Assembly (NCBI GenBank): GCA_016191105.1
Contig: JACPPH010000006.1
Span: 32,670-96,669, forward strand
Length of the DNA stretch: 64,000 bases
Direction of reading: 5' to 3'
Origin: Candidatus Saccharimonadota bacterium
GTDB lineage: Bacteria > Patescibacteriota > Saccharimonadia > CAILAD01 > BJGX01
Positions 13,304 to 27,700 of this stretch are shown in pieces. The notes below the pieces were generated by a model, which worked only from the letters and a program-made list of their open reading frames with translations, did not search any database and was not told the origin of the DNA. Every line of letters starts with the position of its first letter. The first letter of the stretch is position 1. The position numbers and the translations under genes are program-made.

Positions 13304-13696
13304 GGGGCTGACTAGCTTCGACATTGAATCTTGAAATATACCTGCAGGCCGGGTTGGAATGCACGTTAGCCGTTCCGCCAAACCTTAAGTGGCAAAACAC
13401 TTATGAGCAAACTGGTAAACGCTTTGCGCGTTGACAGCTTTGCACCAGCTTACGCTTAACCCGTGTAAGCCGCTGATTGTTCGACATCAGATAGAACCTG
13501 ACGCGTCAACCATCTGATTGCTTTCCGGATAGCCCCTTCATATCTGGAATCAAGCCAAAGATAGGGGAAGCATGTGCTTGTTTTGTTGGTTTTCTTAGAT
13601 AGCACAGCCTTCTAAAACACATCAAAGCTAACTACGCTTGTAGACGGTATATTGAAAGCTCGATGGACGAGGGTGCGATTCCCTCCAGCTCCACCA
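13304..13696 (+). ncRNA. ssrA: Transfer-messenger RNA (tmRNA, ssrA)
   Basis: 5' GGGGCTG pairs with 3' CAGCTCC, including the G3-U wobble expected of an alanine acceptor stem. The 3' end GGACGAGGGTGCGATTCCCTCCAGCTCCACCA matches the T-arm plus CCA of tmRNA. The ~390-nt length fits. An internal reading frame ends ...GCT TAC GCT TAA. Confidence 0.8.
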
Positions 13697-15226
13697 ACAG
13701 GAACTTTCAGAATTTTTTGAGCCAGACGAAAGGACTGCCTCGCGGCTTCGCCGCTCGGCTAAGCCGCTTTGCGCAAGGCGCAAAGCGGCAGAATCCCACG
13801 GCTCGCCAAACGAAACGGAAACGGATTTGTCCAAAAGCATGGGGTTCGTTCCGATCTTTTGGACAAATACCTTGATTTCCCCGAAACTCTCGCTCTGCGA
13901 GAGTTTTTCGGCTTTATTCGCGTCTAAAATCCACGCTCGCAAGGGTTGGAGCCAATTCTTTCCCGTTCGTCCAAAATCCTCCAAATCGTTCGCAAGAGAA
14001 ACTTTTTGCTTCAAAAGTTCTTCTTTTTTGGCGAGATAGTTTTCTTTGGGAATGTCGCCGTCAATGTAGGCGGAAACGAGCTTGTCTAGTTTCTCTTGCG
14101 TATCAGAAAGTTTGGATTTGAGATTTTGGACGAAAGATTGCGATGAGTGGATATCTTCTCTTTGCCATTCGTCTACTTGCTTTAGCATTTTCTCTGTCCA
14201 CTCATCGCAAATAGCAACGCTTTTGAGCTGTGCCTTCAGTTGCGCGGCAAGATTGCTTTCTTGCACATATTTTTGTGAACACACGCCTTTCTTTTTAGTG
14301 CAACGATAGTAGCGATATATTCCGCCGCACTTGCCGCGCGAAAATTGCGCCGTGATCGCCGAGCCGCACTCTCCGCAAGTAAGCAGTCCGGTAAATGGAA
14401 AATCGTGGCGTTGTTTTGATTTGCGGGGTTTGGCACGGCGCAATAAGACATTCTGCACGGCTTCAAAAAGCGTTGCGGAAAGAATTGGCTCAAAGCGTCC
14501 CTCGTGATATTCGCCCTTATGCTTCACCAAACCTAAATATGCTTGATTGGTGAGCATTCGCGATATGGACGCTTTGGCAAGTGGCGTTCGGTGCCGAGTT
14601 TCCAAACCAAGTTCAGCCAAAAACTCCGCCATAGTTTCCAATGTATGCGTTCCTTTGGCGTATTCCTCAAACGCACGGACAATTACTTTGGATAATGTCG
14701 GGTGCGGTTCAATGGTGCGCGTTTTCGGATTATTCACATAACCAAAGGGCGCTTTGGTCAGCCACTCTCCGCGGCGGAGTTTTTGGCGGATACCGCGATT
14801 GATATTCTCCACGAGATTATCGCTGTAATATTTGGATTGACCGAACGCCACTTGCAACATGAACAATCCTTGCGGCGTGGGCTCAAACCAAAATGTCGGA
14901 AAGCGCAAAGAAACGATTTTTTGCGTGTCCACGAGATAAATCACTTTGCCGCCGTCCACAGAATTACGCGCCAACCTGTCGGGGTGCCATGCGAGTATTC
15001 CCACGCCGTCCATTTTTTCAATCTCGCTTATCATGGCGGCAAACATTTCTCGCCCCGGTTTCTTTGCGCTTTTCGCCTCTGTAAATTCTTGGAGAATTTC
15101 CACATTTTCTCTGCGCGCATATTCTCGTAGCTCAAAGAGTTGAGCTTCAATACTCATAATTTGGTGGTCGTCATCCTCCGTTGATTTCCGAGCGTAGAGA
15201 AAATATTTTGGTTTGAGCATATTCAT
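13628..15226 (-). CDS. Large serine recombinase (resolvase/invertase catalytic domain, recombinase domain, zinc ribbon and coiled coil)
   Basis: N-terminal YARKSTEDD...SIEAQ catalytic serine motif, a central recombinase domain and a zinc ribbon CGECG...C..C. 532 aa. The 3' end of the ORF runs through IR-A and overlaps the tmRNA 3' end. Confidence 0.9.
   Translation of the reverse strand: MNMLKPKYFLYARKSTEDDDHQIMSIEAQLFELREYARRENVEILQEFTEAKSAKKPGREMFAAMISEIEKMDGVGILAWHPDRLARNSVDGGKVIYLVDTQKIVSLRFPTFWFEPTPQGLFMLQVAFGQSKYYSDNLVENINRGIRQKLRRGEWLTKAPFGYVNNPKTRTIEPHPTLSKVIVRAFEEYAKGTHTLETMAEFLAELGLETRHRTPLAKASISRMLTNQAYLGLVKHKGEYHEGRFEPILSATLFEAVQNVLLRRAKPRKSKQRHDFPFTGLLTCGECGSAITAQFSRGKCGGIYRYYRCTKKKGVCSQKYVQESNLAAQLKAQLKSVAICDEWTEKMLKQVDEWQREDIHSSQSFVQNLKSKLSDTQEKLDKLVSAYIDGDIPKENYLAKKEELLKQKVSLANDLEDFGRTGKNWLQPLRAWILDANKAEKLSQSESFGEIKVFVQKIGTNPMLLDKSVSVSFGEPWDSAALRLAQSGLAERRSREAVLSSGSKNSESSCWWSWRESHPRPSSFQYTVYKRS
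13691..13822. repeat. IR-A left copy (132 bp, GC-rich). It begins with the terminal CCACCA of the tmRNA.
   Basis: It is the reverse complement of 15254-15385 with 1 mismatch in 132 bp. It contains an internal perfect palindrome gccgctttgcgc..gcgcaaagcggc. Confidence 0.9.
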
Positions 15227-15253
15227 ATTTGAATTATTTTAGACGCGAATAAA

Positions 15254-15385
15254 GGTTTCCGTTTCGTTTGGCGAGCCGTGGGATTTTGCCGCTTTGCGCC
15301 TTGCGCAAAGCGGCTTAGCCGAGCGGCGAAGCCGCGAGGCAGTCCTTTCGTCTGGCTCAAAAAATTCTGAAAGTTCCTGTTGGTG
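15254..15385. repeat. IR-A right copy (inverted relative to 13691-13822)
   Basis: 131 of 132 bp identical to the reverse complement. Confidence 0.9.
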
Positions 15386-15386
15386 G

Positions 15387-15520
15387 GATATTCTAAACTT
15401 TGCGCGAAACTATTTTGAAGGGAACTAGCCCGCCTCCGCTTCGCTCCGGCGGAACGCTCGGGCGCGGCGGAATTCCCCCCACACCCCCCTTCCGCCGCGC
15501 CCTCGCTTTGAAAGCCGCCG
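15387..15520. repeat. IR-B left copy (~134 bp, GC-rich). It starts 1 nt after IR-A right.
   Basis: It is the reverse complement of ~18625-18760. Confidence 0.85.
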
Positions 15521-15681
15521 CGCAGAAAATTCAGAAAAGAAAAGTGGTGTCGTGTTTGCCCCGCCCACCCATGCGCACACGACATCAATTTTGCTCCCCG
15601 AAACTACTGTAGCATAATTGGTCGCCATAGACTAATTGTATAACATCTGCTAAAATTCTTGCAAGAGCGATAATTTCCTTT

Positions 15682-15885
15682 ATGGCGAACGAAATTACAA
15701 AATTCGGTAAAAAGGTCAAAGAAATACGCTTGAAAAAGCGAATGTCGCAAGGCGACATCGCAAGAATTTTGGGCGTTCATAGGAGCTATATCAGTGGCCT
15801 AGAGCGCGGTATTCGCAACCCATCTCTTTTAACGGTTCAAAAAGTGGCTAAAGCGCTAAAAGTGAACGCAAAAGATTTAATATAA
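15682..15885 (+). CDS. XRE-family helix-turn-helix transcriptional regulator
   Basis: MSQGDIARILGVHRSYISGLERGIRNPSLLTVQKVAKAL is a classic HTH_XRE sequence. Confidence 0.85.
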   Translation: MANEITKFGKKVKEIRLKKRMSQGDIARILGVHRSYISGLERGIRNPSLLTVQKVAKALKVNAKDLI

Positions 15886-15902: not shown

Positions 15903-16679
15903 ATGAAAACGAAACTGAAGAAACTGAAGATCGGAATATGGACGTTTATTGTTGTGGCGCTTTTAGTTGCGGCAAAATTTCTGATTCACGCCTGGGGGCT
16001 CGAATACTTCTCGCTTAACGCCCTCTTTACGAGCGCGATCGCGGGAGCGATCTTCATCATGGGTTTCCTGCTTGCTGGAATTATGGCCGATTATAAGGAG
16101 GCGGAAAAAATTCCGGTGGAGCTTCGTTCGTCTCTTGAGAATATTTGGGAGGAGGGAAAGTTCTTCAGCCGTGATAAAAGAGAGTTCAATCTCTCAAAAC
16201 TTAATGACACCTTACTCTCAATAGTCCGGAATTTCTTTAAAGGCCTCGGGCACGAGGGCGACCACTACCGGCTCGATCCGTGCGTTGCGTCAGTCAACGA
16301 GCTTTCGGAGTCGTTTGGACAAATGGAAAAGCTTGGCATGCCACCCAACTATATCGTCCGGCTCGAGGGCGAGCAGGCCTCGGTACGCCGCCAGGTGCTG
16401 CGTGTCTATCATATCCAACGCACGCAATTCCTGCCTTCGGCACACATACTTGCAGAATCCCTCGCGCTCGGAATGGTGTTCCTGCTCCTCTTTGTCAAAA
16501 CGGAAGGATCGCCGGAGTCTATCGTGCTATTCGGATTCATATCGTATCTGTTCCTCTACGTCCGGCAACTCATTCGCGTTCTTGAGAAGCCGTTCAGGCA
16601 GGGCGATAATACGCTCGACGACGTGAGCCTATTTCTCTTGAAAAAGTTTGAGAAGGAATTGTCAGGACATACGGCATGA
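15903..16679 (+). CDS. Integral membrane protein, hypothetical
   Basis: Two N-terminal and two C-terminal hydrophobic helices. 258 aa. Confidence 0.45.
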   Translation: MKTKLKKLKIGIWTFIVVALLVAAKFLIHAWGLEYFSLNALFTSAIAGAIFIMGFLLAGIMADYKEAEKIPVELRSSLENIWEEGKFFSRDKREFNLSKLNDTLLSIVRNFFKGLGHEGDHYRLDPCVASVNELSESFGQMEKLGMPPNYIVRLEGEQASVRRQVLRVYHIQRTQFLPSAHILAESLALGMVFLLLFVKTEGSPESIVLFGFISYLFLYVRQLIRVLEKPFRQGDNTLDDVSLFLLKKFEKELSGHTA

Positions 16680-16698
16680 TTTGCGAGTTGTGCGTTTT

Positions 16699-18579
16699 AT
16701 GAAAATTGCAAACGACCAAAAGAAAAGTAATCACCTGGAATGGATACTGACGGCGATTGCCGCCGGCACCTTCGTCGCGGGAATTTTTTTCAGTGTAATC
16801 AAATTGCCTCTGGCAGACTGGTTTTATTATATATCCTTGCTAGCTGGTGGGTTGCCAGTGGCAAGAGCGGCGACACGAACTCTCCTCCGGCGGAAAATAT
16901 CAATTAATGTACTGGTAACCATCGCAGCTATCGGAGCGCTGTATCTTGGACAAATCGCCGAGGCGGCGGCAGTGATGTTTTTCTTTGCTTTGGCGGAATC
17001 ATTTGAAAAATTTGGCAAAGCGCGTTCGCAAAAAGCTATAGCCGCACTGCTGGAGAGATCGCCGAAACTCGCCCGCCTGCAGGATGGCCGAGAAGTCGCG
17101 GTCGAAAAGGTTGGCGTCGGCGAAACCATAAAAATTCTGCCCGGCGACCTTATCCCTCTGGACGGGATAGTCAGCGGAGGCGACTCCGCAGTCGATGAAG
17201 CGGCTATTACCGGTGAAAGCGTCCCGAAGGAAAAGTATGCGGGACAAACGGTATTTGCCGGCACTATGAACGAAAACGGCTATCTGGAAGTCAGAGTTAC
17301 GAAAACCGCTTCCAATACCACACTTTCTAAAATAATTGTGCTTATCCAGCAGGCGCAAAAGTCCAAGCCTGAAATGCAGGAATTTCTGGACAGGTTTGCC
17401 AGCTTCTATATTCCAGCCGCTCTAGCTCTCGCGGCGCTTGTGGTTATTGTGCCGACCGTGTTTTTCGGACAGCCGTTTAGTCCCTGGCTTACCACGGCCC
17501 TGATTTTACTGGTTTTAGCCTGCCCGGATGCGCTGGTGGTGTCGGCTCCTGTGGCAGTGGCTGCCGCCATGGGCGGAGCTTCGCGCAGAGGAGTATTAAT
17601 AAAGGGCGGCAAATTTCTAGAGTCTTTAAGCAAGGTTAAAGCGTTTGCATTTGATAAGACCAAGACGCTTACTGAAGGGAGTTTGAAAGTGGCCGAAGTC
17701 ATAACTATGCATGGAGCAAGTGAGGAAGAAGTTTTGTCTGATGCCGCAGGACTAGAAAAATTCTCATCTCATCCATTGGCGGCTACCATTCAAAAATATG
17801 CTGCCGACAAGGGCGTCTCCGTTCATGATATGGAAGATTTCAAAAACATTCCCGGACGTGGAGGCTTGGCTAATTGCATGGTTTGTCCAACAAAAGATCA
17901 TGCCATTGGTAATTTGCAACATATCGGCGCAAGTATCAAGGTATGCAAGGATGTTTTGAAGGAAGTTGAGAGAATGGAATCGCTTGGCATGACAACGGTC
18001 ATTGTCAGCGAAGGCCCCAAAGTGATAGGGATCATAGGCATCACTGACCGCCTGCGCCAAGAATCTAAAAACGTTATCACCTCGCTTAATTCGCTTGGAG
18101 TCACACCGGTTATGCTTACGGGCGATAATGAACGGGCCGCCCGTCATATAGCGGAGCAAATAGGAATTAACGAAGTTCATGCGGCCTTGCTTCCTGATCA
18201 AAAAGCCGAACTGGTGAGAGTATTGCAGCAAAGGTATGGAAAAGTCGCCATGGTGGGAGACGGCGTAAATGATGCGCCATCTTTGGCGCGGGCTGATGTA
18301 GGCATAGCGATGGGCGGAGGCGGGTCGGATGTTGCAATCGAGACAGCTGATGTCACTTTGATGAACGATGCCCTAGGCACTATTCCTTACCTGCTTAGAT
18401 TAGGACGCCAAACCTTCAGCGCAGTGAAGCAGAATGTATATGGCTCGCTTGCAGTAAAGGGTGTGATCCTTCTGCTCGGCTTATTTGGTCTGGTGCGGCT
18501 TGATGTGGCTGTGGCAGTTGATGCGGGCGCAGCCATAGTGGTTATATTGAATGGCCTACGATTGTTTAATGCGAAGTAA
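16699..18579 (+). CDS. P1B-type (heavy-metal) P-type ATPase without an N-terminal HMA domain, with variant motifs
   Basis: TGES, CPD (where CPC is usual), DKTKTLTEG (where DKTGT is usual), GDGVNDAPSL, and a transmembrane core like CadA/ZntA. I chose the internal ATG at 16699. Confidence 0.8.
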   Translation: MKIANDQKKSNHLEWILTAIAAGTFVAGIFFSVIKLPLADWFYYISLLAGGLPVARAATRTLLRRKISINVLVTIAAIGALYLGQIAEAAAVMFFFALAESFEKFGKARSQKAIAALLERSPKLARLQDGREVAVEKVGVGETIKILPGDLIPLDGIVSGGDSAVDEAAITGESVPKEKYAGQTVFAGTMNENGYLEVRVTKTASNTTLSKIIVLIQQAQKSKPEMQEFLDRFASFYIPAALALAALVVIVPTVFFGQPFSPWLTTALILLVLACPDALVVSAPVAVAAAMGGASRRGVLIKGGKFLESLSKVKAFAFDKTKTLTEGSLKVAEVITMHGASEEEVLSDAAGLEKFSSHPLAATIQKYAADKGVSVHDMEDFKNIPGRGGLANCMVCPTKDHAIGNLQHIGASIKVCKDVLKEVERMESLGMTTVIVSEGPKVIGIIGITDRLRQESKNVITSLNSLGVTPVMLTGDNERAARHIAEQIGINEVHAALLPDQKAELVRVLQQRYGKVAMVGDGVNDAPSLARADVGIAMGGGGSDVAIETADVTLMNDALGTIPYLLRLGRQTFSAVKQNVYGSLAVKGVILLLGLFGLVRLDVAVAVDAGAAIVVILNGLRLFNAK

Positions 18580-18624: not shown

Positions 18625-18760
18625 GCGGCGGCTTTCAAAGCGAGGGCGCGGCGGAAGGGGGGTGTGGGGGGAATTCCGCCGCGCCCGAGCGTTCCGCCGG
18701 AGCGAAGCGGAGGCGGGCTAGTTCCCTTCAAAATAGTTTCGCGCAAAGTTTAGAATATAC
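18625..18760. repeat. IR-B right copy (inverted)
   Basis: Reverse complement of 15387-15520. Confidence 0.85.
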
Positions 18761-18812
18761 CCCTCCGGAGCTTCGCAGATATTGCTTGCAAAGCCCAAAA
18801 GGGGGGCGGTGG

Positions 18813-19712
18813 TCACGATTGGAGGGCCGTGGCCAGGTTGGAGGCGAGGTTGCGGATGGCCTGCTTGCCGTCGTCGGTGATGATCGGGATCGACCGCGAG
18901 TAGCTGCTCTCGGTTGCCAGACCGATGTTGAAGTTGATCTTCGGTACCTCGTACTCGACTGGCTTTTCAGGTTCGTGACGGTTCTTGTTCTCCCGGAGTC
19001 CGGTCATCATCGAGGCGTGGGTCTGCCAGGCCGGCATCTCGTCCTCGAGCTGCCATGGCTGGACGATGCCGCCGAGGCTCAACGCCACTTCGTAGTCGCC
19101 GACCTGGAATCGGGGGCGACCGAAGTGACGCAGGGGGCCTCCGCGCTCTTCCGTCATGATCTGCTCGACGATCTGCTCACTCGTGCACTCGGCTCCGATC
19201 GTCGTCAGGTTGATGCTGATGACCTCGAAGTCGAAGGTGACAAGCTCGCTGTCGGGCTCGACCTGTGCGGTGACGTCGATGTGCTGAACTGCGCGGTCGA
19301 TCTGGAGGGACTCGGCGAGCCCCACCTCGACCTGGTCACCGACGTAGGCGGCACTGAGATGCAGCAAGAACCAGGTGTCGTCCAGCTTCTGGACCTCGAC
19401 GGTGGTCTTGAAGAACCGACCAACGCCGTCGTAGTCGTAGTGGTAGCTGTACGAGCCCACCGCTTCGATGCCGGCGTCGATCTTGGTGAAGAGGTCGGTC
19501 AGGAACCGATCGTCTCCACCATACATCTCCTCGACGAGCGGCTTCAACAACGCGATCCCGACGCCACCATCCTGGATCAGCTTCTTCTCGGTGGCATTCG
19601 ACCCGGCCGTCTGGCCAGAGGCGAAGAGTCGGAGTGCGTTGCGAACGGCCTCGATCCCTTCGAGTGGGATGCCGCTCAGGTATTCCGTGGTATTGACGGT
19701 GAGGAAGCTCAT
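18813..19712 (-). CDS. Hypothetical protein, GC-rich (~60%), foreign-looking
   Basis: Ribosome-binding site ggaaggag 8 nt upstream of the ATG. Varied amino-acid composition. The antisense 391-aa ORF is an artefact. Confidence 0.55.
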   Translation of the reverse strand: MSFLTVNTTEYLSGIPLEGIEAVRNALRLFASGQTAGSNATEKKLIQDGGVGIALLKPLVEEMYGGDDRFLTDLFTKIDAGIEAVGSYSYHYDYDGVGRFFKTTVEVQKLDDTWFLLHLSAAYVGDQVEVGLAESLQIDRAVQHIDVTAQVEPDSELVTFDFEVISINLTTIGAECTSEQIVEQIMTEERGGPLRHFGRPRFQVGDYEVALSLGGIVQPWQLEDEMPAWQTHASMMTGLRENKNRHEPEKPVEYEVPKINFNIGLATESSYSRSIPIITDDGKQAIRNLASNLATALQS

Positions 19713-19830: not shown

Positions 19831-20286
19831 TTATCGGAGTACTGGTGATCCGTTGAGCTTCCATCTGTTGTATTCGGGAGTTAGTATTTCTCTCCAGTAG
19901 GCAGCGTTTTCGAGTATTAGGTGTAAATTATTGCGTATTCGCTCCACCATGGGAGACTCAGAGTCATTTTCTGGGTCTTTTTTGGTACTTGCTAACCTGA
20001 TAAGTGGACTAATTTGCTGGGTGTAAACTTTTCCATCTTTTTTAACTACAAAATCCTGTGGAAATACCAATTGTTTACACCTCAAGCCTATCATCGTGTG
20101 GTTCAACTGCCAGTACTTTTTAGTCATGTTGTTGATAAAGCCGATGGAGAAGTGTACAAACTCCGATAGATCCTTTTCTACGTTCTTGACCCCATTAATC
20201 TCTTTTTTGTTTTCAACAAGGCTCTGTTTTACCTTTTCGATTGCTTGTTTAGTATAGTCAGCGAGTTCGGGACTATTTGCCAACAA
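19831..20286 (-). CDS. Hypothetical protein (AT-rich module)
   Basis: 151-aa ORF, ~38% GC, downstream of the Fic gene and on the same strand. Confidence 0.4.
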   Translation of the reverse strand: MLANSPELADYTKQAIEKVKQSLVENKKEINGVKNVEKDLSEFVHFSIGFINNMTKKYWQLNHTMIGLRCKQLVFPQDFVVKKDGKVYTQQISPLIRLASTKKDPENDSESPMVERIRNNLHLILENAAYWREILTPEYNRWKLNGSPVLR

Positions 20287-20291
20287 GGTTA

Positions 20292-20477
20292 TTAGCCTAC
20301 TTTCTGTTCCTGAAGCTCAATAGACCGCGTCTCGAGCCGTTTAAGATACTCAAGCTTAGTTTGTTGTCTCTGACGCCAAACTGTATCAAGGGTGGTCTCT
20401 AGATCCGTACAGCCCAAGGAGAAGGCTTCATCCAGCTTATCTAAGACCGATTTAGTCATAACACTGGGGCTAGTCAT
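20292..20477 (-). CDS. Small hypothetical protein (61 aa) between the Fic gene and the 151-aa ORF
   Basis: ORF only. It might be a Fic-associated partner. Confidence 0.3.
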   Translation of the reverse strand: MTSPSVMTKSVLDKLDEAFSLGCTDLETTLDTVWRQRQQTKLEYLKRLETRSIELQEQKVG

Positions 20478-20587
20478 AGTACCTACGGTATACTCCTGTA
20501 TAGCGTACTACGGGCAAATTTGAAGACATCCAAAGAGACTCCTTTATCTTGTAAGTAGGGGCGGTAGGTGATAACTAACCCAACCTT

Positions 20588-21709: not shown

Positions 21710-22024
21710 ACATTATGTTTGTATATACACTATATATCTTTTCTTGGAGAAGGTACTATGTGGGTGTCATTCCCTCAACGGAGTAGAGCAGATCTGTCGA
21801 GCTTATACCTCTCATAATCCGAGTACAGCAGTTCTCTCCAGTAGGTTATGTTTTCAGATAAAGCTTGCCAACTTTTTGCTATCCTCTCCACCAAAGAAAG
21901 ATCAGATTAAACCTGGTCTCTTTTTTGATTGACAAATATACTTTAATCTTATAAAATAGTGGCGTTCTTGAATCTGTCGTCTGGTGAACCATTCACCACA
22001 GATTCAGAAGAAAGCAGGTCTACA

Positions 22025-22261
22025 ATGGGTGCACGAAATGCAGCCGACGACCCAACCAAGAAACCCCTCCACGCCTACCTGAGCAAAAAAGCTCACGATG
22101 CTTGGCAGGAGGCGAGCGATGAAGCTGGTGTGAGCATGTCCGCTCTTCTAGAGGCCATTGGCCTTAGTTGGGCGGAAAAGCCACCGACAGAAGACGCTGA
22201 GTGGTTCGACGCCATCGCAGGCCGGGCGCGCAAAATCGATACCTTTCGTCGCCGGCGCTAG
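22025..22261 (+). CDS. Hypothetical small protein, GC-rich
   Basis: MGARNAADDPTKKPLHAYLSKKAHDAWQEASDEAGVSMSALLEAIGL… may be a ribbon-helix-helix-type or DNA-binding small protein. Confidence 0.35.
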   Translation: MGARNAADDPTKKPLHAYLSKKAHDAWQEASDEAGVSMSALLEAIGLSWAEKPPTEDAEWFDAIAGRARKIDTFRRRR

Positions 22262-22273
22262 AGGAGGAGCTCA

Positions 22274-22599
22274 TGGCAACCACGCTATTGTTCAAGGCCG
22301 GCCAGCAAGTAATCTGGAACCCGACACTCGATGGCAACAAACAGCTTGCAGAGCTCCAGCGCGCATACAGCGCAGGGCCGTTCAGGGTGGTTGAGGTGCG
22401 TTCTTGCGGTCAGTCACCTTGCAACTGTGGCAGCCCACCTGGCTACCCGCATAGTTCGAGCTGCCCCAAGGGACTCGGTCGGTTGCTCGGTCACCCCCAG
22501 TGGCTAATCTTGACCGATCTGCAAGGCCGACCCATCAACAGCTGCTTCCACGACATGGGTCCGGTGCAACTTTCGGGCCGCTGGTTCGCAGCAACCTGA
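22274..22599 (+). CDS. Hypothetical protein, GC-rich, cysteine-containing
   Basis: ATG at 22274 preceded by GGAGGAG. 108 aa. Confidence 0.4.
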
Positions 22600-22633
22600 G
22601 CCAAACACAACTACAAGGAGGGAATACCCACGG

Positions 22634-22680
22634 AAAAGACCACGCGGTCCACCAGTCCGTGGGTCTTTTCGTTTATAGAA
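22634..22680 (+). terminator. Rho-independent terminator
   Basis: aagaccacgcggtccaccagtccgtgggtcttttcgttta. Confidence 0.5.
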
Positions 22681-22870
22681 CAAGCCGTTGTGGTACTGAC
22701 CTCTCTATATCTGCACAGCCTTGCTTTTAAAAGAATAGACCGACTAAGGCCTTGCTATAAGCTAGTAGTCATTTTTTTTGTACAGATTGACTTTTTAACT
22801 ACAAAGGACAACAATAATAGCAACTTGTCCGAAAGGCGGACTTGTAGCTCCAGGAAGGTGGTTAGCGACC

Positions 22871-23251
22871 ATGTCCAAGATAGCAACCGAAAGTCGGGTG
22901 CAGAAGGCAAAGCCTTCGCGCCACGGCGTGCCAACCAGGGAGAGCATGATCGGCGACATCGTCGACGAACTGGGATGCAGCCTCGACGACGCGAACCTCA
23001 CCGTCACGATCATCGACCGGATCGGCGCGAAGCTGCGAGCCGGCCAGAGCCGGGTGCAGATCGACACCTGGGCCGAGTTCAACGCTGTGCATCCTTTGCT
23101 CAACCAGATCATGCCGCCCGGGCAACGAGCGCCCCAGGCCGGCACTCTGCACGCCAAGGCCAACGCCTACGCCAGCCGTGACAAGCAAGTCGCACTGGTG
23201 CACGTCGGCAGCAAGAACTGCATCATCATCGCCGACGACGTCGTCGTCTGA
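22871..23251 (+). CDS. Hypothetical protein, GC-rich
   Basis: Ribosome-binding site aggaaggtgg before the ATG. 126 aa. Confidence 0.45.
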   Translation: MSKIATESRVQKAKPSRHGVPTRESMIGDIVDELGCSLDDANLTVTIIDRIGAKLRAGQSRVQIDTWAEFNAVHPLLNQIMPPGQRAPQAGTLHAKANAYASRDKQVALVHVGSKNCIIIADDVVV

Positions 23252-23426
23252 TCGGCAACATCTCGATCATCTAGCGCTTCGCCGCGCGAATGGGGCATCC
23301 CTCTACGCCCCCGACAGAGCCCTCGCTCCCGCCGGGGGCTTTGTCGTTACATTTGTTATAATAATGGCTGAGATCTATAGGGCGGCCAACAGGCCGCTTA
23401 TCCGTTCCAAGACAAGGGAGAGGGAC

Positions 23427-23996
23427 ATGACCCGACCATATCGAATCCAGGTCGTATCTGTAGGTGTGGGCAAATCGCAGGTGATTGGCGCCAAGCCAAG
23501 CGGAGAGGAATGGTCTTCGGCCATTCACAAGGAGCCTGTCAGCTCTCGTAGCCTATGGGTTGATCGCAACGGCCTCGAAGGGGATACCCAGGTAGACAGG
23601 AGGGTGCACGGTGGTGACGACAAGGCAGTGTATGCATATCCTAGCGAGCACCTAAAGGCGTGGGCTGAGGAAGTCGGTCGTGAGATCACCGCGGCTGAGC
23701 TAGGAGTGAACCTGCTAGTAGAGGGTGTGACAGAAGAGACTGCGAGGATCGACGACAAGTGGTGGTGGAACGGTGTAAGGCTGATCATCACCAAGCCCCG
23801 TCAGCCCTGCAACACTCTGAGACATCACACCGGGATTCAAGACATCCGGCTGAGGATGAAAAACAACGGTTTCTGTGGCTGGTATCTGAGGGTGCTGCAG
23901 CCGGGCAGGGGTCTCACCAGCGGTGACATCTCAGTTACCCCTGGTTATGGGCCGACAGTTGCCGAGGTCTTTGCTGGAAAGACCTTCGAAACCTAA
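23427..23996 (+). CDS. MOSC-domain protein (YiiM-like)
   Basis: Ribosome-binding site aagggagaggga, then ATG at 23427. The central region has …VHGGDDKAVYAY… and a conserved Cys (QPCNTL) typical of MOSC. Confidence 0.75.
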   Translation: MTRPYRIQVVSVGVGKSQVIGAKPSGEEWSSAIHKEPVSSRSLWVDRNGLEGDTQVDRRVHGGDDKAVYAYPSEHLKAWAEEVGREITAAELGVNLLVEGVTEETARIDDKWWWNGVRLIITKPRQPCNTLRHHTGIQDIRLRMKNNGFCGWYLRVLQPGRGLTSGDISVTPGYGPTVAEVFAGKTFET

Positions 23997-24178
23997 GGAC
24001 ACCACGCAGGCGCGTAGAGGTCTTCACAAGCCGTCAGAAGGGTGACAACAGTCGCTTTTCGGGCGGCTGTTGTTATTTATAGAGGCTTTGCATATAATAT
24101 ACGAGACAACGGGCGGGCAAATCAGCCCGCTTTTTGCGAATTGACCCCACAAGTGAATCGAAAGAAGGAGGGCCTGTC

Positions 24179-24637
24179 ATGGCCAAACCAAAAGTAGCAG
24201 TCCTGATGGGCTCGCCCAACGACATGGACAAGATGAAGCCGGCGGCCGACACACTGGAGCGCTTCGGACTTGAGGCCGATGTGCGGGTGCTGTCCGCTCA
24301 CCGTAACCCCGATCAGGTGGTGGAGCTGGTGAGCACCGCACGTGAGAACGGCTACGCGGCACTCATCTGCGGTGCTGGCATGGCGGCTCATCTGGCCGGC
24401 GTATGCGCCGCCCACACCACCTTGCCGGTGGTGGGGGTCCCCTTGAGCGGTGGTGCTCTGAACGGCGTCGATGCGCTCTACAGCACTGTACAGATGCCCA
24501 AGGGGATCCCGGTGGCCACCGTGGCCATCGATGGTGCCATGAACGCCGCCCTACTGGTGGCGGAAATGCTGGCCATCACCGACGAGACCCTGCAGGACAC
24601 TCTCTACTTGTATCGCCAAGAGCTCGCCAACAAGTAG
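24179..24637 (+). CDS. purE: N5-carboxyaminoimidazole ribonucleotide mutase (class I PurE)
   Basis: VAVLMGSPNDMDKM…AHRNPD…GAGMAAHLAG. 152 aa. Ribosome-binding site gaaggag. ~65% GC. Confidence 0.9.
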   Translation: MAKPKVAVLMGSPNDMDKMKPAADTLERFGLEADVRVLSAHRNPDQVVELVSTARENGYAALICGAGMAAHLAGVCAAHTTLPVVGVPLSGGALNGVDALYSTVQMPKGIPVATVAIDGAMNAALLVAEMLAITDETLQDTLYLYRQELANK

Positions 24638-24667
24638 TCCGACCCCAACCCAACGGAAGGAAATTCC

Positions 24668-25561
24668 ATGAACACTATCGATTTGCCGCTGCTGTCCTCG
24701 AACAAGGTGCGGGATGTCTACGACGCCGGCGACGGGAGGCTTCTGCTGGTCACCAGCGATCGCCTCAGTGCCTTCGACGTTGTGATGAATCAGCAGGTGA
24801 AGTACAAGGGCATAGTGCTCAACCTGATGTCGGAGTGGTGGTTCAACTTCTTCGGTGATACGCCCAACCACATGATCACCACCGATCTGGCCAAGATGCC
24901 ACCAGGAGTGCCACGCGTTCCTGAGCTCAAGGGTCGAGTGATGCTTTGCCGCAAGGCCGAGATGCTGCCCATCGAATGCATCGTGCGTGGCTACATCACT
25001 GGTTCGGGCTGGAAGGACTACAAGCGCGACGGTGCAGTCTGTGGTCACCAACTGCCCGAGGGGCTGCTGGAGTCGCAGAAGCTGCCCGAGACGCTGTTCA
25101 CGCCCTCTACCAAGTTCGAAGCCAAGGATCGCAACATCGAACTCGACGAGGCAATGTCGCTCACAGAGGAGCGATTCTCGGGGAGAGGGGAGAGCTTGGT
25201 GTTGTCGGCACGCACCATGACCACCAACCTCTACGAGGAGGGTGCGGAGTGGGCGGCCGAACGCGGCATCATCATCGCCGACACCAAGTTCGAGGTCGGG
25301 GTGGTAGACGGTGAGCTGACCGTCTGCGACGAGATCCTGACTCCTGATAGCAGCCGGTTCTGGCCGGCTGATCAATGGGTGCCAGGCACAACGCCACCTA
25401 GCTTCGACAAGCAGCCTGTGCGTGACCACCTGGATGCCTCAGACTGGGACAAGGAACCTCCACCACCCGATCTTCCAGATGAGGTGGTGGAGGCAACCAG
25501 CGGCCGATACGTCGAGGCATACAAGCGGATCACCGGCAGCACGCTCCCACTGGCCGCCTGA
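24668..25561 (+). CDS. purC: Phosphoribosylaminoimidazole-succinocarboxamide (SAICAR) synthase
   Basis: KVRDVYD…LLVTSDRLSAFDVVM… is typical of PurC. 297 aa. Confidence 0.9.
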   Translation: MNTIDLPLLSSNKVRDVYDAGDGRLLLVTSDRLSAFDVVMNQQVKYKGIVLNLMSEWWFNFFGDTPNHMITTDLAKMPPGVPRVPELKGRVMLCRKAEMLPIECIVRGYITGSGWKDYKRDGAVCGHQLPEGLLESQKLPETLFTPSTKFEAKDRNIELDEAMSLTEERFSGRGESLVLSARTMTTNLYEEGAEWAAERGIIIADTKFEVGVVDGELTVCDEILTPDSSRFWPADQWVPGTTPPSFDKQPVRDHLDASDWDKEPPPPDLPDEVVEATSGRYVEAYKRITGSTLPLAA

Positions 25562-25595
25562 GCCAACAACAGCAATATCGCAAGCAATGGGTCGC

Positions 25596-25645: not shown

Positions 25646-25979
25646 TTTCGTTTAAGCAAAATTTGCTATTGGCATGTCGGCATTTGGCGTTGTGCAAAAA
25701 GTTGGCCAAGGCCAAATAAAATTCGTAGCGTCTAAAAAATTAAATGTAAAAATTGTTAAAAATGTTTTGGGCAAATTTAGTACAGTATAAAAAAAGCAGG
25801 TTAGCGTTTGCCCGGGGGCGTTGCTAACCTGTTGGAAGAGCTTTGTTTTTGTTTTTGAGTAATTTATGTGTGCAGCACTAATACAATAATAGCGCTTATG
25901 CTGAGTACCTGTCAACAACTTTTTTGAACTTTTTTATAAGTTTTTTAATACAAAATTTTATTCGTGCACCCCCCAACAA

Positions 25980-26984
25980 TTATAATTGGCCGTCGCGGGC
26001 GAGTGAGTTGAGCGCCAAGCGCTCAATAAATGCAATTTGAGCCGGCGCAATATTACGCTTTTTGCCACGCCACGTACTCAGCGCTGGTTCTTGCACGGCC
26101 CGTGAATACGAAAAGCTAATTGGCCAAGGCTCTTTGCCGGCCCGGGCAATGGCGTTGAGATCCTCGGTAGCTTGCCGAGGAGTCTGCCCACCAGATAGAA
26201 AGACGATTCCGGCTACCTCCTTGGGCACCCGCTGGCGTAACACCCTTACAGTAGCTTTGGCCACATCTGATGGGCTAGACGGCCTAGAGCTGTCGTGGCC
26301 AGCCAAAACCATACTGGTTTTTAAAATAACACCCTTAAGATCGACCCGATAAGCAATTAACAGATCGAACAGCACTCGCAACACCTGGGAAACCACTTGC
26401 TCGCAGGTTTCTAGGCTGTGATTGCCCTCATATAGCACCTCAGGTTCGACGATTGGCACCATACCGGCCGACTGAACCAAGCAGGCATAGCGAGCCATCT
26501 GGTTGAGATTGGCGTGAATAGCCGCGGCAGTTGGCAGGCGTAATTTAGAGTCTATCTGAAAAGCTGCCCGCCACTTGGTAAAGCGAGCGCCCATTTTGTA
26601 GTATTCGTCGAGGCGTTCGGCCAGGCCATCTAGGCCTTCGGTAATGGTCTCGGGCTCGAAGTTGGTGAAGGGGACTAAGCCTTTGTCGACCTTAATGCCC
26701 ACAGCTATACCTTGCCTTCGCAAATATTTGGTAAACTTAATACCAGAGTTGGTTTTTTGGCGAATGGTCTCGTCGTATAGAATAACTCCACTAATATATT
26801 GTGCGAAGTTAGGTGCAGTAAATAGCAAATGGCGATATCGGCGCCGCATTTCGGGCGAACTGGGTATGCGCAAGGCTGCAAACCGCTTCTCGGCCGACTT
26901 ATTGCTTTCATCGGCTGCCAGCAGGCCCCTAGGGTCGGCCATAAGATCCTTGGCTATCTTGGCTAAATCACTATTAGCGCTCAT
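25980..26984 (-). CDS. fba: Fructose-bisphosphate aldolase, class I
   Basis: GLLAADES…, LKGVILKTSMV (active-site Lys region) and IVFLSGGQ. Confidence 0.85.
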   Translation of the reverse strand: MSANSDLAKIAKDLMADPRGLLAADESNKSAEKRFAALRIPSSPEMRRRYRHLLFTAPNFAQYISGVILYDETIRQKTNSGIKFTKYLRRQGIAVGIKVDKGLVPFTNFEPETITEGLDGLAERLDEYYKMGARFTKWRAAFQIDSKLRLPTAAAIHANLNQMARYACLVQSAGMVPIVEPEVLYEGNHSLETCEQVVSQVLRVLFDLLIAYRVDLKGVILKTSMVLAGHDSSRPSSPSDVAKATVRVLRQRVPKEVAGIVFLSGGQTPRQATEDLNAIARAGKEPWPISFSYSRAVQEPALSTWRGKKRNIAPAQIAFIERLALNSLARDGQL

Positions 26985-27083
26985 GCTTACAATATTAGCA
27001 CGTACACCAGGAAATATTAAGTATTTTGATAGAGCAATCTTGTAATCTCTACAGAATGTTTATGCTATAGCACAAAGTATAAG

Positions 27084-27533
27084 TTACTTTGACTGCCCAA
27101 CTTCACGGTCAGCATCGCGCAGCATATCGTGTTTTTTAATCTGTTGGCGTTTGTCAAACTGCTTCTTGCCACGGCCGGCCCCAAGCTCAACTTTTACCAA
27201 ACCGCGCTCAACACCAACGCTTAGTGGCACCACGGCCATGCCACCAGACTGCACTAAGCCTTGCAGCTCATTGAGCTCACGCCTATGCAGCAGAATTTTG
27301 CGACTTTGGGTGGGCTCGTAGTCTTTGAGCCCAGTAGCGTGTTTATAGGGGGTGATGTGGGCATTGGTAAGCCAAGCTTCGCCGCCGCGAAAGCTTACAA
27401 AGCTACCTTTGAGGCTGATAGCCCCAGATTTTACACTTTTAACTTCGTGACCAGCCAATACTAAGCCAGCCAAGACCGTTTTAGCGATGTCGTAGTCATA
27501 GCGGGCCCGTTTGTTGCTGGCTACAATCTTCAT
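27084..27533 (-). CDS. smpB: SsrA-binding protein SmpB
   Basis: NKRARYDYDI…LAGHEVKSVK…GEAWLTNAHITPY…SRKILLHRRELNEL…GKKQFDKRQ. I chose the ATG at 27533. Confidence 0.9.
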   Translation of the reverse strand: MKIVASNKRARYDYDIAKTVLAGLVLAGHEVKSVKSGAISLKGSFVSFRGGEAWLTNAHITPYKHATGLKDYEPTQSRKILLHRRELNELQGLVQSGGMAVVPLSVGVERGLVKVELGAGRGKKQFDKRQQIKKHDMLRDADREVGQSK

Positions 27534-27700
27534 AAGCTCAATTATAGCGTATAAACCCTGCAATCAGATACAACAACTTCTGCATTTGGCGCATTACTGT
27601 GTTGCTCACTACGCTACTCCTTTGGCGTACGATTTTGTACGCTGCCGTCCGTTGCTTACTCGCACCTTGTACTGCACTCAAATCAGAAGTCTTGTATAAT

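What the first reader, a model, noticed from the sequence alone, without database searches (positions are those of the whole stretch)
13304..27563. Mosaic ~12 kb island inserted at the CCA 3' end of the tmRNA gene, separating ssrA from smpB
The tmRNA gene (acceptor stem with G3-U and a CCA end) stops at 13696. The recombinase-bearing element starts at 13691 with CCACCA. Its partner gene smpB lies 13.4 kb away at 27084-27533, on the far side of a patchwork of 48%, 38% and 60-65% GC blocks. tRNA and tmRNA 3' ends are classic integration sites. The GC patchwork suggests successive insertions at the same site. The right-hand boundary and its att site are not obvious. The AT-rich spacer at 25650-25980 may be the original ssrA-smpB intergenic region.
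Basis: partly seen in the sequence, partly recalled or inferred. Interest (0 to 1): 0.7.

Follow-up and report, generated by a model that had tools for sequence, protein, structure and literature searches.

The report
Stacked foreign DNA behind tmRNA gene
Downstream of the tmRNA gene of an uncultured Saccharibacteria genome lie at least three separate foreign DNA segments, the first of which is a 5-kb mobile element of a widespread and, as far as I could find, undescribed family that uses a serine integrase to insert at the 3' ends of tRNA and tmRNA genes.

Summary
A tmRNA gene lies at 13304-13696, a recombinase element starts at 13691 (CCACCA), smpB lies 13.4 kb away, and the GC patchwork is real.

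In five related Saccharibacteria, ssrA and smpB are already 5-8 kb apart, with aldolase, a conserved small-RNA-like element and variable genes between them. Nothing split an adjacent pair. The 12.3-kb gap is a stack of three segments:
1. A 5.07-kb large-serine-recombinase (LSR) element, 13691-18761, carrying a heavy-metal ATPase.
2. A 3.1-kb integrase-less segment (orphan high-GC gene, Fic) bracketed by two copies of "tmRNA end + terminator".
3. A 3.7-kb high-GC block (MOSC, purE, purC). Its purC is closest to Actinomycetota.

The LSR element is the interesting part. In about 60 related loci the integrase gene converges on the 3' end of a tRNA or tmRNA gene. The crossover core covaries with the target's discriminator/CCA end. 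The integrase reading frame spans attP, so integration replaces a conserved C-terminal helix. A complete inverted copy of the integrase 3' end plus attP sits upstream of the gene, which creates two abutting inverted-repeat pairs around integrase and cargo. I found no description of this architecture.

The parts
13304..13696 (+). tmRNA gene (ssrA). This is the integration target. Its 3' end CCACCA is kept intact by the element.
   Evidence: ARAGORN. Rfam RF00023, 106.7 bits.
13691..13697 (+). Left junction (attL type). The core CCACCAA is shared by the tmRNA end, the element's internal attP copy and the native downstream sequence.
   Evidence: Junction alignments. Native attB in L010.
13691..13822 (+). 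Arm a, 132 nt (continues at 13912-13930 after an 89-nt stretch). On the minus strand it encodes residues about 469-511 of the integrase. It is the attP right half.
   Evidence: the repeat finder I2 and I5..
13628..15226 (-). Large serine recombinase gene, 532 aa as integrated. The last 21 codons are antisense tmRNA sequence and replace the conserved native tail.
   Evidence: Pfam. PDB and NCBIfam. More than 6000 homologs. Tail analysis.
15236..15386 (+). Arm a', the inverted copy of arm a, lying immediately upstream of the integrase start codon.
   Evidence: the repeat finder I2 and I5, 99-100% identity.
15380..15428 (+). Internal intact attP copy in inverted orientation: core TTGGTGG plus the spare integrase tail codons WDILNFARNYFEGN and stop. 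On the minus strand it holds a sigma70-like promoter (15419->15390) aimed at the integrase gene.
15385..15521 (+). Arm b, 137 nt. It contains the tail codons and promoter motif and a GC-rich hairpin (15453-15509).
   Evidence: the repeat finder I1 and I12.
15682..15885 (+). Cargo gene: Xre-type HTH protein, 67 aa.
   Evidence: Pfam HTH_3, E 3e-17. A 43% identical homolog lies next to a second recombinase in L083.
15903..16679 (+). Cargo gene: 258-aa protein of unknown family.
   Evidence: No Pfam or NCBIfam hit.
16648..18579 (+). Cargo gene: P1B-type heavy-metal (Zn/Cd/Pb-like) translocating ATPase, 643 aa.
   Evidence: TIGR01525, 559 bits. Pfam.
18625..18761 (+). Arm b', the inverted copy of b and the right end of the element (attR type). 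In this assembly the identity stops at 18758. The core and 49 nt of native terminator (53 nt in all) are missing compared with a unitig contig from the same sample.
   Evidence: L085 comparison.
18813..19712 (-). High-GC orphan gene, 299 aa, GC 0.62, GC3 0.85, preceded by AGGAAGGAG. The 391-aa ORF on the + strand is spurious.
   Evidence: An 80% identical homolog is a lone high-GC insert between ftsZ and ftsA in L166.
19831..21709 (-). AT-rich block: a 151-aa ORF, a 61-aa ORF and a Fic/DOC adenylyltransferase gene (20588-21709).
   Evidence: Pfam Fic and Fic_N. NCBIfam. GC 0.40.
21886..21935 (+). Second, diverged copy of CTCCACCA plus the tmRNA terminator hairpin (D2). It marks the right end of the integrase-less second segment.
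22026..25561 (+). High-GC block 2: three small ORFs, MOSC (about 23364-23996), purE (about 24179-24637) and purC (24668-25561).
   Evidence: Pfam and NCBIfam. GC3 0.62-0.77. The nearest named purC homologs are Acidimicrobiales and Iamia at 62-65% identity.
25789..25915 (-). Native backbone resumes here. A conserved promoter (TTGACA, 17 nt, TATTAT) is followed by an invariant 37-nt sequence and a terminator hairpin. This is a candidate small RNA of about 90 nt downstream of FBA.
   Evidence: blastn against 14 relatives. Alignment A2. Coordinates. No Rfam family.
25980..27563 (-). Native class-I fructose-bisphosphate aldolase (25980-26984) and smpB (27084-27563).
   Evidence: Pfam. Synteny in relatives.

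Best explanation
The stretch between ssrA and the native FBA-smpB genes is an insertion hot spot holding at least three independently acquired segments.

**Segment 1 (13691-18761).** This is an integrative element driven by a large serine recombinase (LSR). It entered by attP x attB recombination at a 7-bp core (CCACCAA) covering the discriminator and CCA end of the tmRNA gene. Its arm 'a' regenerates the tmRNA 3' end. The native terminator was pushed to the far end. The cargo is an HTH protein, a 258-aa unknown protein and a heavy-metal P-type ATPase.

The element belongs to a very large family found across CPR/Patescibacteria lineages. The family has these features:
- The left attB half-site is the T-arm and acceptor end of any tRNA or tmRNA gene.
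- The same GGTTCG motif lies 5-6 bp further out in the attP left half. This is the shift expected for LSR sites.
- The core covaries with the target.
- The integrase reading frame runs across attP. The free-form protein ends in a conserved helix of about 14 residues (xILNFARTxFExN). The integrated form loses it and reads into antisense tRNA.
- An inverted copy of the whole 3' end of the integrase gene plus attP (about 270 bp) sits just upstream of the gene. It supplies a promoter-like motif, an intact attP and a spare 3' end. It also produces the two abutting inverted-repeat pairs, a/a' around the integrase and b/b' around the cargo.

Inferred, not shown: swapping the tail changes integrase activity or directionality. 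Inversion of the integrase segment between a and a' restores the full-length gene downstream of the t(m)RNA promoter. One locus, L167, is found in that state.

**Segment 2 (18762-21885).** This segment has no integrase and is bracketed by two copies of 'tmRNA end + terminator'.

**Segment 3 (about 21960-25600).** This is horizontally acquired high-GC DNA. Its purC is closest to Actinomycetota.
For: **Backbone synteny and empty site.** Five relatives keep the order smpB, FBA, variable genes, tmRNA, GT4, GT4 with no recombinase. In L010 the tmRNA is followed directly by AAAAAAGATCAGATATAAACTGGTCTTTTTTTGAT.

**Element ends.**
- Inverted repeats lie at 13691-13822/15255-15386 and at 15385-15521/18625-18761. 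Both pairs are 99% identical, and the inner arms overlap by 2 nt.
- A unitig contig from the same sample (L085) shows the canonical right junction: GAATATC-CCAC-CAAAAAGAGATCAG... This is b', then the core, then a terminator with 2 mismatches to that of L010.

**Family.**
- More than 6000 homologs at 60-94% identity occur in Parcubacteria, Berkelbacteria, Yanofskybacteria and other CPR groups.
- In 83 loci, 56 (plus 3 missed by the distance filter) have a convergent tRNA or tmRNA at the 3' end of the recombinase gene. The targets cover 11 tRNA amino-acid types plus tmRNA. None has a co-directional tRNA upstream.
- A second repeat pair abuts the first and encloses 1.1-7 kb of diverse cargo in about 20 loci.
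- The core (CCAC, CGAC, TCAC, GCA, CCGC) is shared by all three junctions and tracks the target.
- GGTTCG lies 17 nt from the core in the target and 22-23 nt from it in attP. The 5-bp rule for LSR sites is stated in PMC11722253.

**Integrase tail.**
- The attP-form ORF is 517-538 aa across the 25 loci aligned (529-536 in the first 15) and ends in a conserved peptide. Integrated forms are 525-599 aa with unrelated tails.
- Third codon positions vary most: 0.50 against 0.32 and 0.28.
- AlphaFold2 predicts a helix at residues 505-520 with pLDDT 73-88.
- L167 shows tRNA-Ala followed by a co-directional integrase gene with a full-length tail.
- L168 shows re-integration into an occupied site.

**Segments 2 and 3.**. 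The GC junctions inside the island (about 18.8, 19.77 and 21.95 kb) are spanned by unitig contig L085 and the right-hand junction (about 25.6 kb) by L001. Both contigs are 100% identical to the window.
Against: - There is no direct evidence of excision, a free circle or an empty site in this population.
- In the window assembly the right-junction core is deleted, so this copy may be immobile. The deletion could also be an assembly error.
- No directionality factor is identifiable.
- The right attB half-sites show no conservation. This is unusual for LSRs.
- If a circle with two equivalent attP copies were the intermediate, both orientations should be common. About 60 loci are convergent and one is flipped. 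The arms of that flipped locus are only 80% identical.
- Arm identities of the a and b pairs are not correlated within elements, so the history of the repeats is not simple.
- The role of the tail rests on sequence conservation and a structure prediction only.
- The repeats bracketing segment 2 are only 84% identical, and the segment has no recombinase.
- Segment 3 has no flanking repeats. Its nearest named donors are only about 65% identical. A MOSC gene (42% identical) sits at the same place in L010, so part of it could be older.
- The sequence comes from a metagenome-assembled genome.
Confidence: 0.8

Rival explanations
1. One mosaic island of about 12 kb, built by repeated insertions, split an originally adjacent ssrA-smpB pair. 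The AT-rich spacer is the old intergenic region.
For: Insertion at the tmRNA CCA end is real, and there is more than one insertion. ssrA and smpB lie within 1 kb of each other in some distant relatives, for example L023, L038 and L080.
Against: In the closest clade, ssrA and smpB are always 5-8 kb apart, with FBA and other genes between them. FBA and a conserved small-RNA-like element lie between the spacer and smpB. The LSR element ends at 18761, not near smpB.
Confidence: 0.08
2. The high-GC blocks are a chimeric assembly or binning artefact of the metagenome-assembled genome. Under this view, actinobacterial fragments were joined to a Saccharibacteria contig.
For: The source is a MAG (locus tags HYX70_). 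GC3 reaches 0.85. purC is closest to Actinomycetota. The window differs from a unitig contig by a 53-nt deletion at 18758/18759.
Against: Two Logan contigs from run SRR12113392, built by a different assembler, cover 18759-36984 at 100% identity. They span every GC transition and the native genes. The 299-aa gene has an 80% identical homolog that is likewise a lone high-GC gene inside another roughly 50%-GC genome with CPR-like gene order. The nearest actinobacterial purC is only about 65% identical, so no co-assembled donor is evident.
Confidence: 0.05
3. The recombinase module is a resident DNA invertase system of the shufflon or Hin type. It would flip the integrase and cargo segments for phase variation and would not be a mobile element.
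For: There are two adjacent segments, each flanked by long inverted repeats that share a central site. One locus is in the flipped state (L167). Cargo occurs in both orientations among loci. JGI labels some members 'DNA invertase Pin-like'.
Against: Presence or absence varies at the same tmRNA among relatives. The same integrase lineage (86-95% identical) sits at tmRNA, three tRNA-Ala isoacceptors, tRNA-Tyr and tRNA-Ser in different organisms. The outer junctions are hybrid sites sharing only the core with the target. Cargo is unrelated between copies. The domain set is that of integrases (Recombinase plus Zn ribbon plus coiled coil). Inversion may still be part of the life cycle.
Confidence: 0.1
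4. The inverted attP copy has no function. It would be a by-product of how these elements arise or stack, for example repeated integration into occupied sites followed by deletions. The conserved 'tail' would then reflect only integrase binding to DNA.
For: Tandem and re-integrated arrangements exist (L168, L109, L124). The CGA codon and the TAnnAT motif in the tail region are invariant at the DNA level. Arm identities decay to 72-90% in some loci.
Against: The copy is present next to the integrase start in every locus examined, including the minimal ones. The reading frame, stop position and ORF length of the attP form are conserved, with excess variation at third codon positions. The tail is predicted as a confident helix.
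Confidence: 0.12

Closest known systems
Genomic islands integrated in tRNA and tmRNA genes by tyrosine integrases (Islander/TIGER class; PMC4383910)
   Same: The target is the 3' part of a t(m)RNA gene. The gene is regenerated by element sequence. The integrase gene lies next to the target. Several islands stack at one site. Empty sites occur in relatives.
   Different: The recombinase is a large serine recombinase. The identity block is only 3-7 bp at the discriminator/CCA position, not a 15-50-bp tRNA fragment. No displaced tRNA fragment is produced by the LSR element. Long inverted repeats are present.
Phage and ICE large serine integrases (phiC31, Bxb1, A118/LI, SPbeta SprA; SCCmec Ccr; XisF)
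   Same: The domain architecture matches. The Y-x-R-x-S catalytic motif is present. The crossover core is short. The shared outer motif lies 5-6 bp further from the centre in attP than in attB (PMC11722253).
   Different: Identity to any phage or plasmid homolog is at most 27%. The targets are t(m)RNA T-arm and acceptor ends rather than protein genes. The right attB half is not conserved. The integrase gene spans attP. A second inverted attP is present. No directionality factor is seen. The elements are tiny, with an integrase gene and as little as one cargo gene.
SSV1-type archaeal integrases and mycobacteriophage integration-dependent immunity (from my own knowledge, not checked here)
   Same: attP lies inside a gene of the element, so integration into a tRNA gene changes or splits the gene product.
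   Different: Those systems use tyrosine recombinases. SSV1 splits the integrase gene in two, and the mycobacteriophages truncate the repressor. Here only the last 14 or so codons of a serine integrase are exchanged, and a spare inverted copy is kept.
Tycheposons of Prochlorococcus (bioRxiv 10.1101/2020.12.28.424599)
   Same: They are cargo shuttles in streamlined genomes that target a set of tRNA genes and the tmRNA gene and build islands by accretion. A minority of those elements carry an LSR.
   Different: 910 of the 937 elements described there carry tyrosine recombinases. Many tycheposons carry replication genes, and integrated elements are flanked by partial-tRNA direct repeats. None of this is seen here. 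No inverted attP architecture is described.
Hin/Gin invertible segments, shufflons, and the yeast 2-micron FLP/FRT circle (from my own knowledge)
   Same: The recombinase gene lies inside a segment bounded by inverted sites. Adjacent invertible segments share sites. A circle carries two inverted recombination regions.
   Different: Those are small serine invertases or tyrosine recombinases with 26-34-bp sites and no chromosomal integration. Here the outer sites are hybrid att sites in a t(m)RNA gene.

Membership tests
tmRNA (Rfam RF00023) | Full-length covariance-model match above the gathering score | tested here: met
   106.7 bits against 47, model positions 1-374.
tmRNA (Rfam RF00023) | tRNA-Ala-like acceptor stem with G3-U70 and a CCA end, and a tag reading frame ending in ...A(Y/L)A(A) | tested here: met
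   GGGGCUG/CAGCUCC-A-CCA. Tag ...SFAPAYA*, like that of relatives.
Large serine recombinase (integrase) | N-terminal resolvase catalytic domain with the Y-x-R-x-S serine motif | tested here: met
   PF00239, E 9e-22. YARKST aligns with YLRRSR of SprA.
Large serine recombinase (integrase) | Recombinase domain (DBD1), zinc-ribbon domain (DBD2) and an embedded coiled coil | tested here: met
   PF07508 and PF13408. The AlphaFold2 model of homolog P0009 (88% identical to the window integrase) has long helices at 339-386 and 392-419.
Large serine recombinase (integrase) | attP and attB share only a short core, and the outer (DBD2) motif lies about 5 bp closer to the centre in attB than in attP | tested here: met
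   Cores of 3-7 bp. GGTTCG at 17 nt in attB against 22-23 nt in attP. Rule cited from PMC11722253. Shown for the left half-sites only.
Large serine recombinase (integrase) | Catalysis of attP x attB recombination, and directionality controlled by a directionality factor | not testable with these tools
   No candidate factor is encoded in minimal elements. Biochemistry is needed.
Site-specific integrative element at a t(m)RNA gene | Hybrid junctions at both ends, an uninterrupted site in relatives, and restoration of the target gene | tested here: met
   T|a and b'|D junctions. Empty attB in L010 and L014. tmRNA intact. The right core is missing in the window assembly but present in L085.
Classical tyrosine-integrase tmRNA island | Tyrosine recombinase (phage integrase family) and a direct repeat of a tRNA-gene fragment | tested here: not met
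   There is no tyrosine recombinase among the main ORFs scanned against Pfam between 13.6 and 26 kb. The LSR element duplicates only the core. Segment 2 does have a 50-nt imperfect direct repeat but no integrase.
Tycheposon | Hallmark replication genes, a tyrosine recombinase in most of the elements described, and partial-tRNA direct repeats | tested here: not met
   The cargo holds only HTH, an unknown protein and an ATPase. Other family members carry single unrelated genes.
DNA invertase or shufflon system | Inverted crossover sites bounding segments that exist in both orientations in one population | tested here: inconclusive
   Inverted sites are present. One flipped locus exists in another organism. 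About 60 of 61 loci share one orientation. No population-level read data are available.

The most novel reading that the evidence does not exclude
A family of minimal integrative elements found across CPR lineages may work without a separate directionality factor. Its serine integrase reads the universally conserved T-arm of tRNA-like genes, with a core that co-evolves with the target. This lets one lineage colonise any tRNA or tmRNA gene. Integration itself rewrites the integrase by removing a C-terminal helix encoded across attP. The inverted spare copy of the integrase 3' end plus attP lets a simple segment inversion rebuild the full-length gene behind the t(m)RNA promoter. Together these would give a self-contained on/off or integrate/excise switch.
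Probability: 0.3. Interest if true: 0.85.

Novelty: new variant of a known kind. Interest (0 to 1): 0.72.

Why it matters
CPR/Patescibacteria have tiny genomes, and few mobile elements have been described in them. How they exchange genes is poorly understood.

This locus exposes an abundant element family. It has thousands of integrase homologs at 60-94% identity across CPR lineages. It shuttles transporters, restriction and defence genes and metabolic genes into tRNA and tmRNA genes.

The architecture has three unusual features: an integrase gene that spans attP, a complete inverted spare attP, and T-arm recognition with a target-matched core. It suggests a new way to control serine-integrase activity without an accessory factor. 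It also points to integrases whose target could be changed by editing a few core bases, which matters for genome engineering.

The high-GC block, whose purC is closest to Actinomycetota, adds purE and purC to a lineage generally thought to lack purine biosynthesis (my own background knowledge, not checked here).

Tried and rejected
**Searches that found nothing**
- E. coli genomes: no match.
- Exact-protein look-ups of the recombinase, purC, Fic and P0121: nothing on record.
- IMG/VR viral contigs: no relative of the integrase.
- Annotated phages and plasmids: only homologs at 27% identity or less.
- Six literature searches and three papers read gave no description of this architecture. Subscription journals are not covered.

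**Readings rejected**
- The ARAGORN tRNA-SeC call at 20690-20783 lies inside the Fic ORF and has no Rfam support, so I treat it as a false positive.
- The 391-aa + strand ORF at 18588-19763 and the 121-aa ORF across 15223-15588 are artefacts of high GC and of the repeat.
- The weak inverted match of the tmRNA end inside purE (I3) and the similar terminators at 22647-22675 and 25626-25654 are probably chance or generic terminators.
- A possible decayed b' arm upstream of D2 scored only marginally above the D2 match alone (76 against 71). I do not claim it.

**Mechanistic models rejected on paper**
- Integration of a folded single-stranded 'dumbbell' would leave hairpin-capped chromosome ends.
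- Double crossover of a linear fragment needs attL x attR and predicts alternating integrase orientation.
- Contigs L102 and L127 cannot be taken as evidence for a free circular form, because short-read assemblers can walk through the inverted repeats.

Full report
**1. Observation**

ARAGORN and Rfam both call a full-length tmRNA at 13304-13696 (+). The Rfam score is 106.7 bits against a gathering score of 47. The acceptor stem is GGGGCUG/CAGCUCC with G3-U, and the 3' end is ACCA.

A 532-aa ORF on the minus strand (13628-15226) carries the Resolvase, Recombinase and Zn_ribbon_recom domains of a large serine recombinase (LSR). Its nearest solved relatives are SPbeta SprA and the A118 integrase.

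smpB is at 27084-27563 (-).

The composition steps are real. The backbone GC is 0.474. The stretches at 18.5-19.7 kb and 22.0-25.5 kb have GC 0.55-0.63. The 19.8-21.9 kb stretch has GC 0.38-0.42.

**2. Organism and backbone**

smpB relatives place the window in Saccharibacteria (TM7, Patescibacteria), with the best identity at 71-72%. Exact protein matches identify an NCBI metagenome-assembled genome named 'Candidatus Saccharibacteria bacterium'. Its locus tags begin HYX70_ and the contig is 125.6 kb long.

Two contigs that a different assembler built from run SRR12113392 are 100% identical to window 25265-36984 (L001) and 18759-25291 (L085).

In five relatives (L007, L008, L009, L010, L014) the gene order is AddA, a 688-aa ORF, ArgRS, smpB, FBA, 3.8-6.4 kb of ordinary genes, tmRNA (convergent), GT4, GT4, GalT. 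The ordinary genes include NUDIX, a histidine kinase, an acyltransferase, DUF218, MOSC and a vault-like protein. ssrA and smpB are therefore not adjacent in this clade. The region downstream of ssrA is variable in all of these genomes. None of the relatives carries the recombinase there.

**3. The LSR element (13691-18761)**

The repeat finder revealed two inverted-repeat pairs, both 99% identical:
- a/a' at 13691-13822 and 15255-15386, with a further 19 nt at 13912-13930 and 15236-15254.
- b/b' at 15385-15521 and 18625-18761.

The inner arms overlap by 2 nt. Read as sites, the structure is tmRNA|a, integrase (minus strand), a'|b, cargo, b'|downstream. The middle site is an intact, inverted copy of the sequence b'|a.

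The window's right junction looked degenerate (GAATAT-A-CC-CCTCC). The unitig contig L085 from the same sample explains why. It reads ...GAATATC-CCAC-CAAAAAGAGATCAGATAGAAACTGGTCTTTTTTTGATACAAATGCGAA-ACCCCTCC.... The window therefore lacks 53 nt between 18758 and 18759.

The extra sequence is the core plus a terminator hairpin. It differs at only 2 positions from the sequence that directly follows the tmRNA in relative L010, which is CTCCACCA|AAAAAAGATCAGATATAAACTGGTCTTTTTTTGAT.

The empty site, both hybrid junctions and a 7-bp core (CCACCAA) are thus defined. The element regenerates the tmRNA 3' end and displaces its terminator by 5 kb.

The cargo is an Xre-type HTH protein, a 258-aa unknown protein and a P1B heavy-metal ATPase (TIGR01525, 559 bits).

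**4. The element belongs to a large family with a fixed architecture**

The integrase has more than 6000 homologs. The top 120 are 60-94% identical and are named from several CPR groups.

Contexts of three homologs and of 80 metagenome loci were analysed by script:
- In 56 of 83 loci a convergent tRNA or tmRNA gene lies at the 3' end of the integrase gene. Three more were missed by the distance filter.
- The targets are tRNA-Ala, Ser, Glu, Pro, Arg, Ile, Tyr, Met, Lys, Leu and Val, plus tmRNA.
- In 13 loci the contig ends there.
- No locus has a co-directional tRNA upstream.
- The integrase gene is flanked by inverted arms of 95-160 nt. The 3' arm ends 3-8 nt inside the target gene.
- In about 20 loci a second repeat pair (99-272 nt) abuts the first and encloses 1.1-7 kb of cargo.

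The cargo is unrelated between loci. It includes a sodium-solute symporter, a CPBP protease, a radical-SAM protein, GTP cyclohydrolase II fused to a methyltransferase, type III restriction genes and an AAA_21/PHP protein.

The junction table shows an intact b'|a site next to the integrase start in every locus. It also shows a conserved b motif (TTCAAAATrGGTTCGCGCAAAGnTTAGnAT). The 3-7-bp core (CCAC, CGAC, TCAC, GCA, CCGC) is shared by all three junctions and follows the last acceptor bases, the discriminator and the first C of CCA of the target.

The sequences to the right of the core in the target are not conserved.

The T-loop motif GGTTCG lies 17 nt from the core in the target and 22-23 nt from it in the attP left half. 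This is the 5-bp outward shift of the DBD2 motif that distinguishes attP from attB half-sites in LSRs (PMC11722253).

Annotated phages and plasmids contain only homologs at 27% identity or less, and IMG/VR contains none.

**5. The integrase gene spans attP**

Translating the integrase through arm a into b, as it would be read on an unintegrated element, gives an ORF of 517-538 aa across the 25 loci aligned (529-536 in the first 15). It ends in a conserved peptide xILNFARTxFExN followed by a stop.

The integrated genes read into antisense tRNA instead. They end after 525-599 aa with unrelated tails of the ...ESNP... or ...GNRT... type.

In the tail, third codon positions vary more (0.50) than first (0.32) or second (0.28) positions. 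The peptide is therefore selected, although the CGA codon and a TAnnAT motif are also fixed at the DNA level.

AlphaFold2 was run on a full-length family member (P0009, 62-sequence alignment, mean pLDDT 75.5). It predicts the tail as a helix (505-520, pLDDT 73-88) after a disordered linker.

The b motif also matches a sigma70-type promoter (TTCAAA, 18 nt, TAGAAT). The promoter points across the core. At the internal site it faces the integrase gene (15419->15390). At the right end it faces outward (18727-18756).

The simplest description follows. This is a standard LSR element whose attP overlaps the 3' end of its integrase gene. It also carries an inverted duplicate of that whole region of about 270 bp immediately upstream of the gene. 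That one duplicate produces both repeat pairs.

**6. How it most likely works**

Shown:
- Site-specific insertion at the t(m)RNA discriminator/CCA position.
- Restoration of the target gene.
- Exchange of the integrase C-terminus on integration.
- Retention of an intact inverted attP with a spare 3' end.

Inferred:
- The tail helix modulates activity or directionality. Short helices packing on DBD2 and the coiled-coil hinge do so in SPbeta, and integrase fusions with directionality factors work (PMC11722253, PMC5737554).
- Inversion between a and a' would rebuild the full-length gene immediately downstream of the t(m)RNA promoter.

Locus L167 is in exactly that state. tRNA-Ala (+) is followed by arm a, a co-directional integrase gene ending ...WWDILNVARTHFERDS*, and then a'|b. 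Its arms are only 80% identical.

Locus L168 shows an element whose target side is the b' end of another element. An occupied site can therefore be re-used, which explains arrays such as L109.

Unexplained:
- The near-absolute orientation bias.
- The lack of any directionality factor.
- The tolerance for arbitrary right half-sites.
- The uncorrelated decay of the a and b arm pairs.

**7. The rest of the gap**

*Segment 2 (18762-21885).*
- It holds a 299-aa orphan gene on the minus strand with GC3 0.85 and its own ribosome-binding site.
- Only 24 homologs of that gene exist. One of them, 80% identical, is also a lone 60%-GC gene, inserted between ftsZ and ftsA in another genome.
- It also holds two small ORFs and a Fic gene, all AT-rich.
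- The segment is bracketed by D1 (in L085) and D2 (21886-21935). D2 is CTCCACCA plus the terminator and is 84% identical to D1.
- This supports an earlier insertion at the same site.
- No integrase remains in the segment.

*Segment 3 (about 21960-25600).*
- It holds three small ORFs, MOSC, purE and purC, with GC 0.56-0.62.
- The closest named purC relatives are Acidimicrobiales and Iamia at 62-65% identity.
- It has no flanking repeats.
- Its position beyond D2 means it need not have entered through the tmRNA site.

*Right boundary.* Native DNA resumes by about 25790. A promoter, an invariant 37-nt sequence and a terminator are conserved downstream of FBA in 14 relatives at 78-87% nucleotide identity. 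The neighbouring proteins are less conserved than this. The element has no Rfam match.

**8. Known or new**

Islands at tmRNA genes are classic. On that reading alone the finding would be ordinary. The recombinase class, the attP-spanning integrase gene, the inverted spare attP and the T-arm-based target range are not features of any family I could find.

I therefore rate it a new variant of a known kind, namely LSR integrative elements and t(m)RNA-targeting islands. Two caveats apply. The literature search covers open-access papers only, and all mechanistic steps beyond the anatomy are inferences.

Noticed in passing
window 25789-25915 (minus strand): A conserved noncoding element lies downstream of FBA in 14 Saccharibacteria relatives at 78-87% nucleotide identity. 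It has a TTGACA-17-TATTAT promoter, the invariant sequence UGCUGCACACAUAAAUUACUCAAAAACAAAAACAAAG, and a hairpin terminator whose stem sequence differs between relatives while a hairpin is kept in each. It is a candidate small RNA of about 90 nt with no Rfam family.
   Followed up: partly
window 18758/18759 compared with L085 6534-6586: The window assembly lacks 53 nt that are present in a unitig contig from the same sequencing run. The missing stretch holds the right-junction core and the displaced tmRNA terminator. It is either a real deletion variant that immobilises the element or an assembly error.
   Followed up: partly
window 18813-19712 (-); L166 3062-3961: An orphan 299-aa gene with GC3 0.85 has only 24 homologs. 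An 80% identical copy is a lone 60%-GC gene inserted between ftsZ and ftsA in another genome of about 50% GC. It behaves like a single-gene mobile cassette of unknown function.
   Followed up: partly
window 20690-20783: ARAGORN calls a tRNA-SeC (tca) on the + strand inside the Fic ORF. No Rfam tRNA or tRNA-Sec match reaches the gathering score. It is probably a false positive.
   Followed up: partly
window 8500-9650: The DAHP-synthase gene region has GC 0.57-0.58. It is the only other stretch of the 64-kb window above 0.55 and may be another acquired gene.
   Followed up: no
window 13391-13459: According to ARAGORN the tmRNA tag starts with GGC (Gly, GKTLMSKLV...). Relatives start with Ala or Val (ANTLMRNLV...). 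The resume codon may be unusual or mis-set.
   Followed up: no
L109 4722-9515; L124 7543-12960; L083 6402-11536: Arrays occur in related loci. L109 has two repeat-flanked cargo cassettes in series next to one integrase. L124 has a second, inverted integrase copy with further repeat pairs. L083 has two different elements at neighbouring tRNA-Ser and tRNA-Ala genes.
   Followed up: partly
window 21965-22000: A near-perfect palindrome GAATCTGTCGTCTGGTGAACCATTCACCACAGATTC lies just upstream of the first ORF of the high-GC block. It looks like an operator.
   Followed up: no
window 22630-22675 and 25596-25654: Two terminator hairpins end in similar tails (GGGTCTTTTCGTTTA and GGGTTCTTTTCGTTTA). They bracket the stretch from the 163-aa ORF through MOSC and purE to purC. 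This could be chance or a trace of another unit.
   Followed up: no
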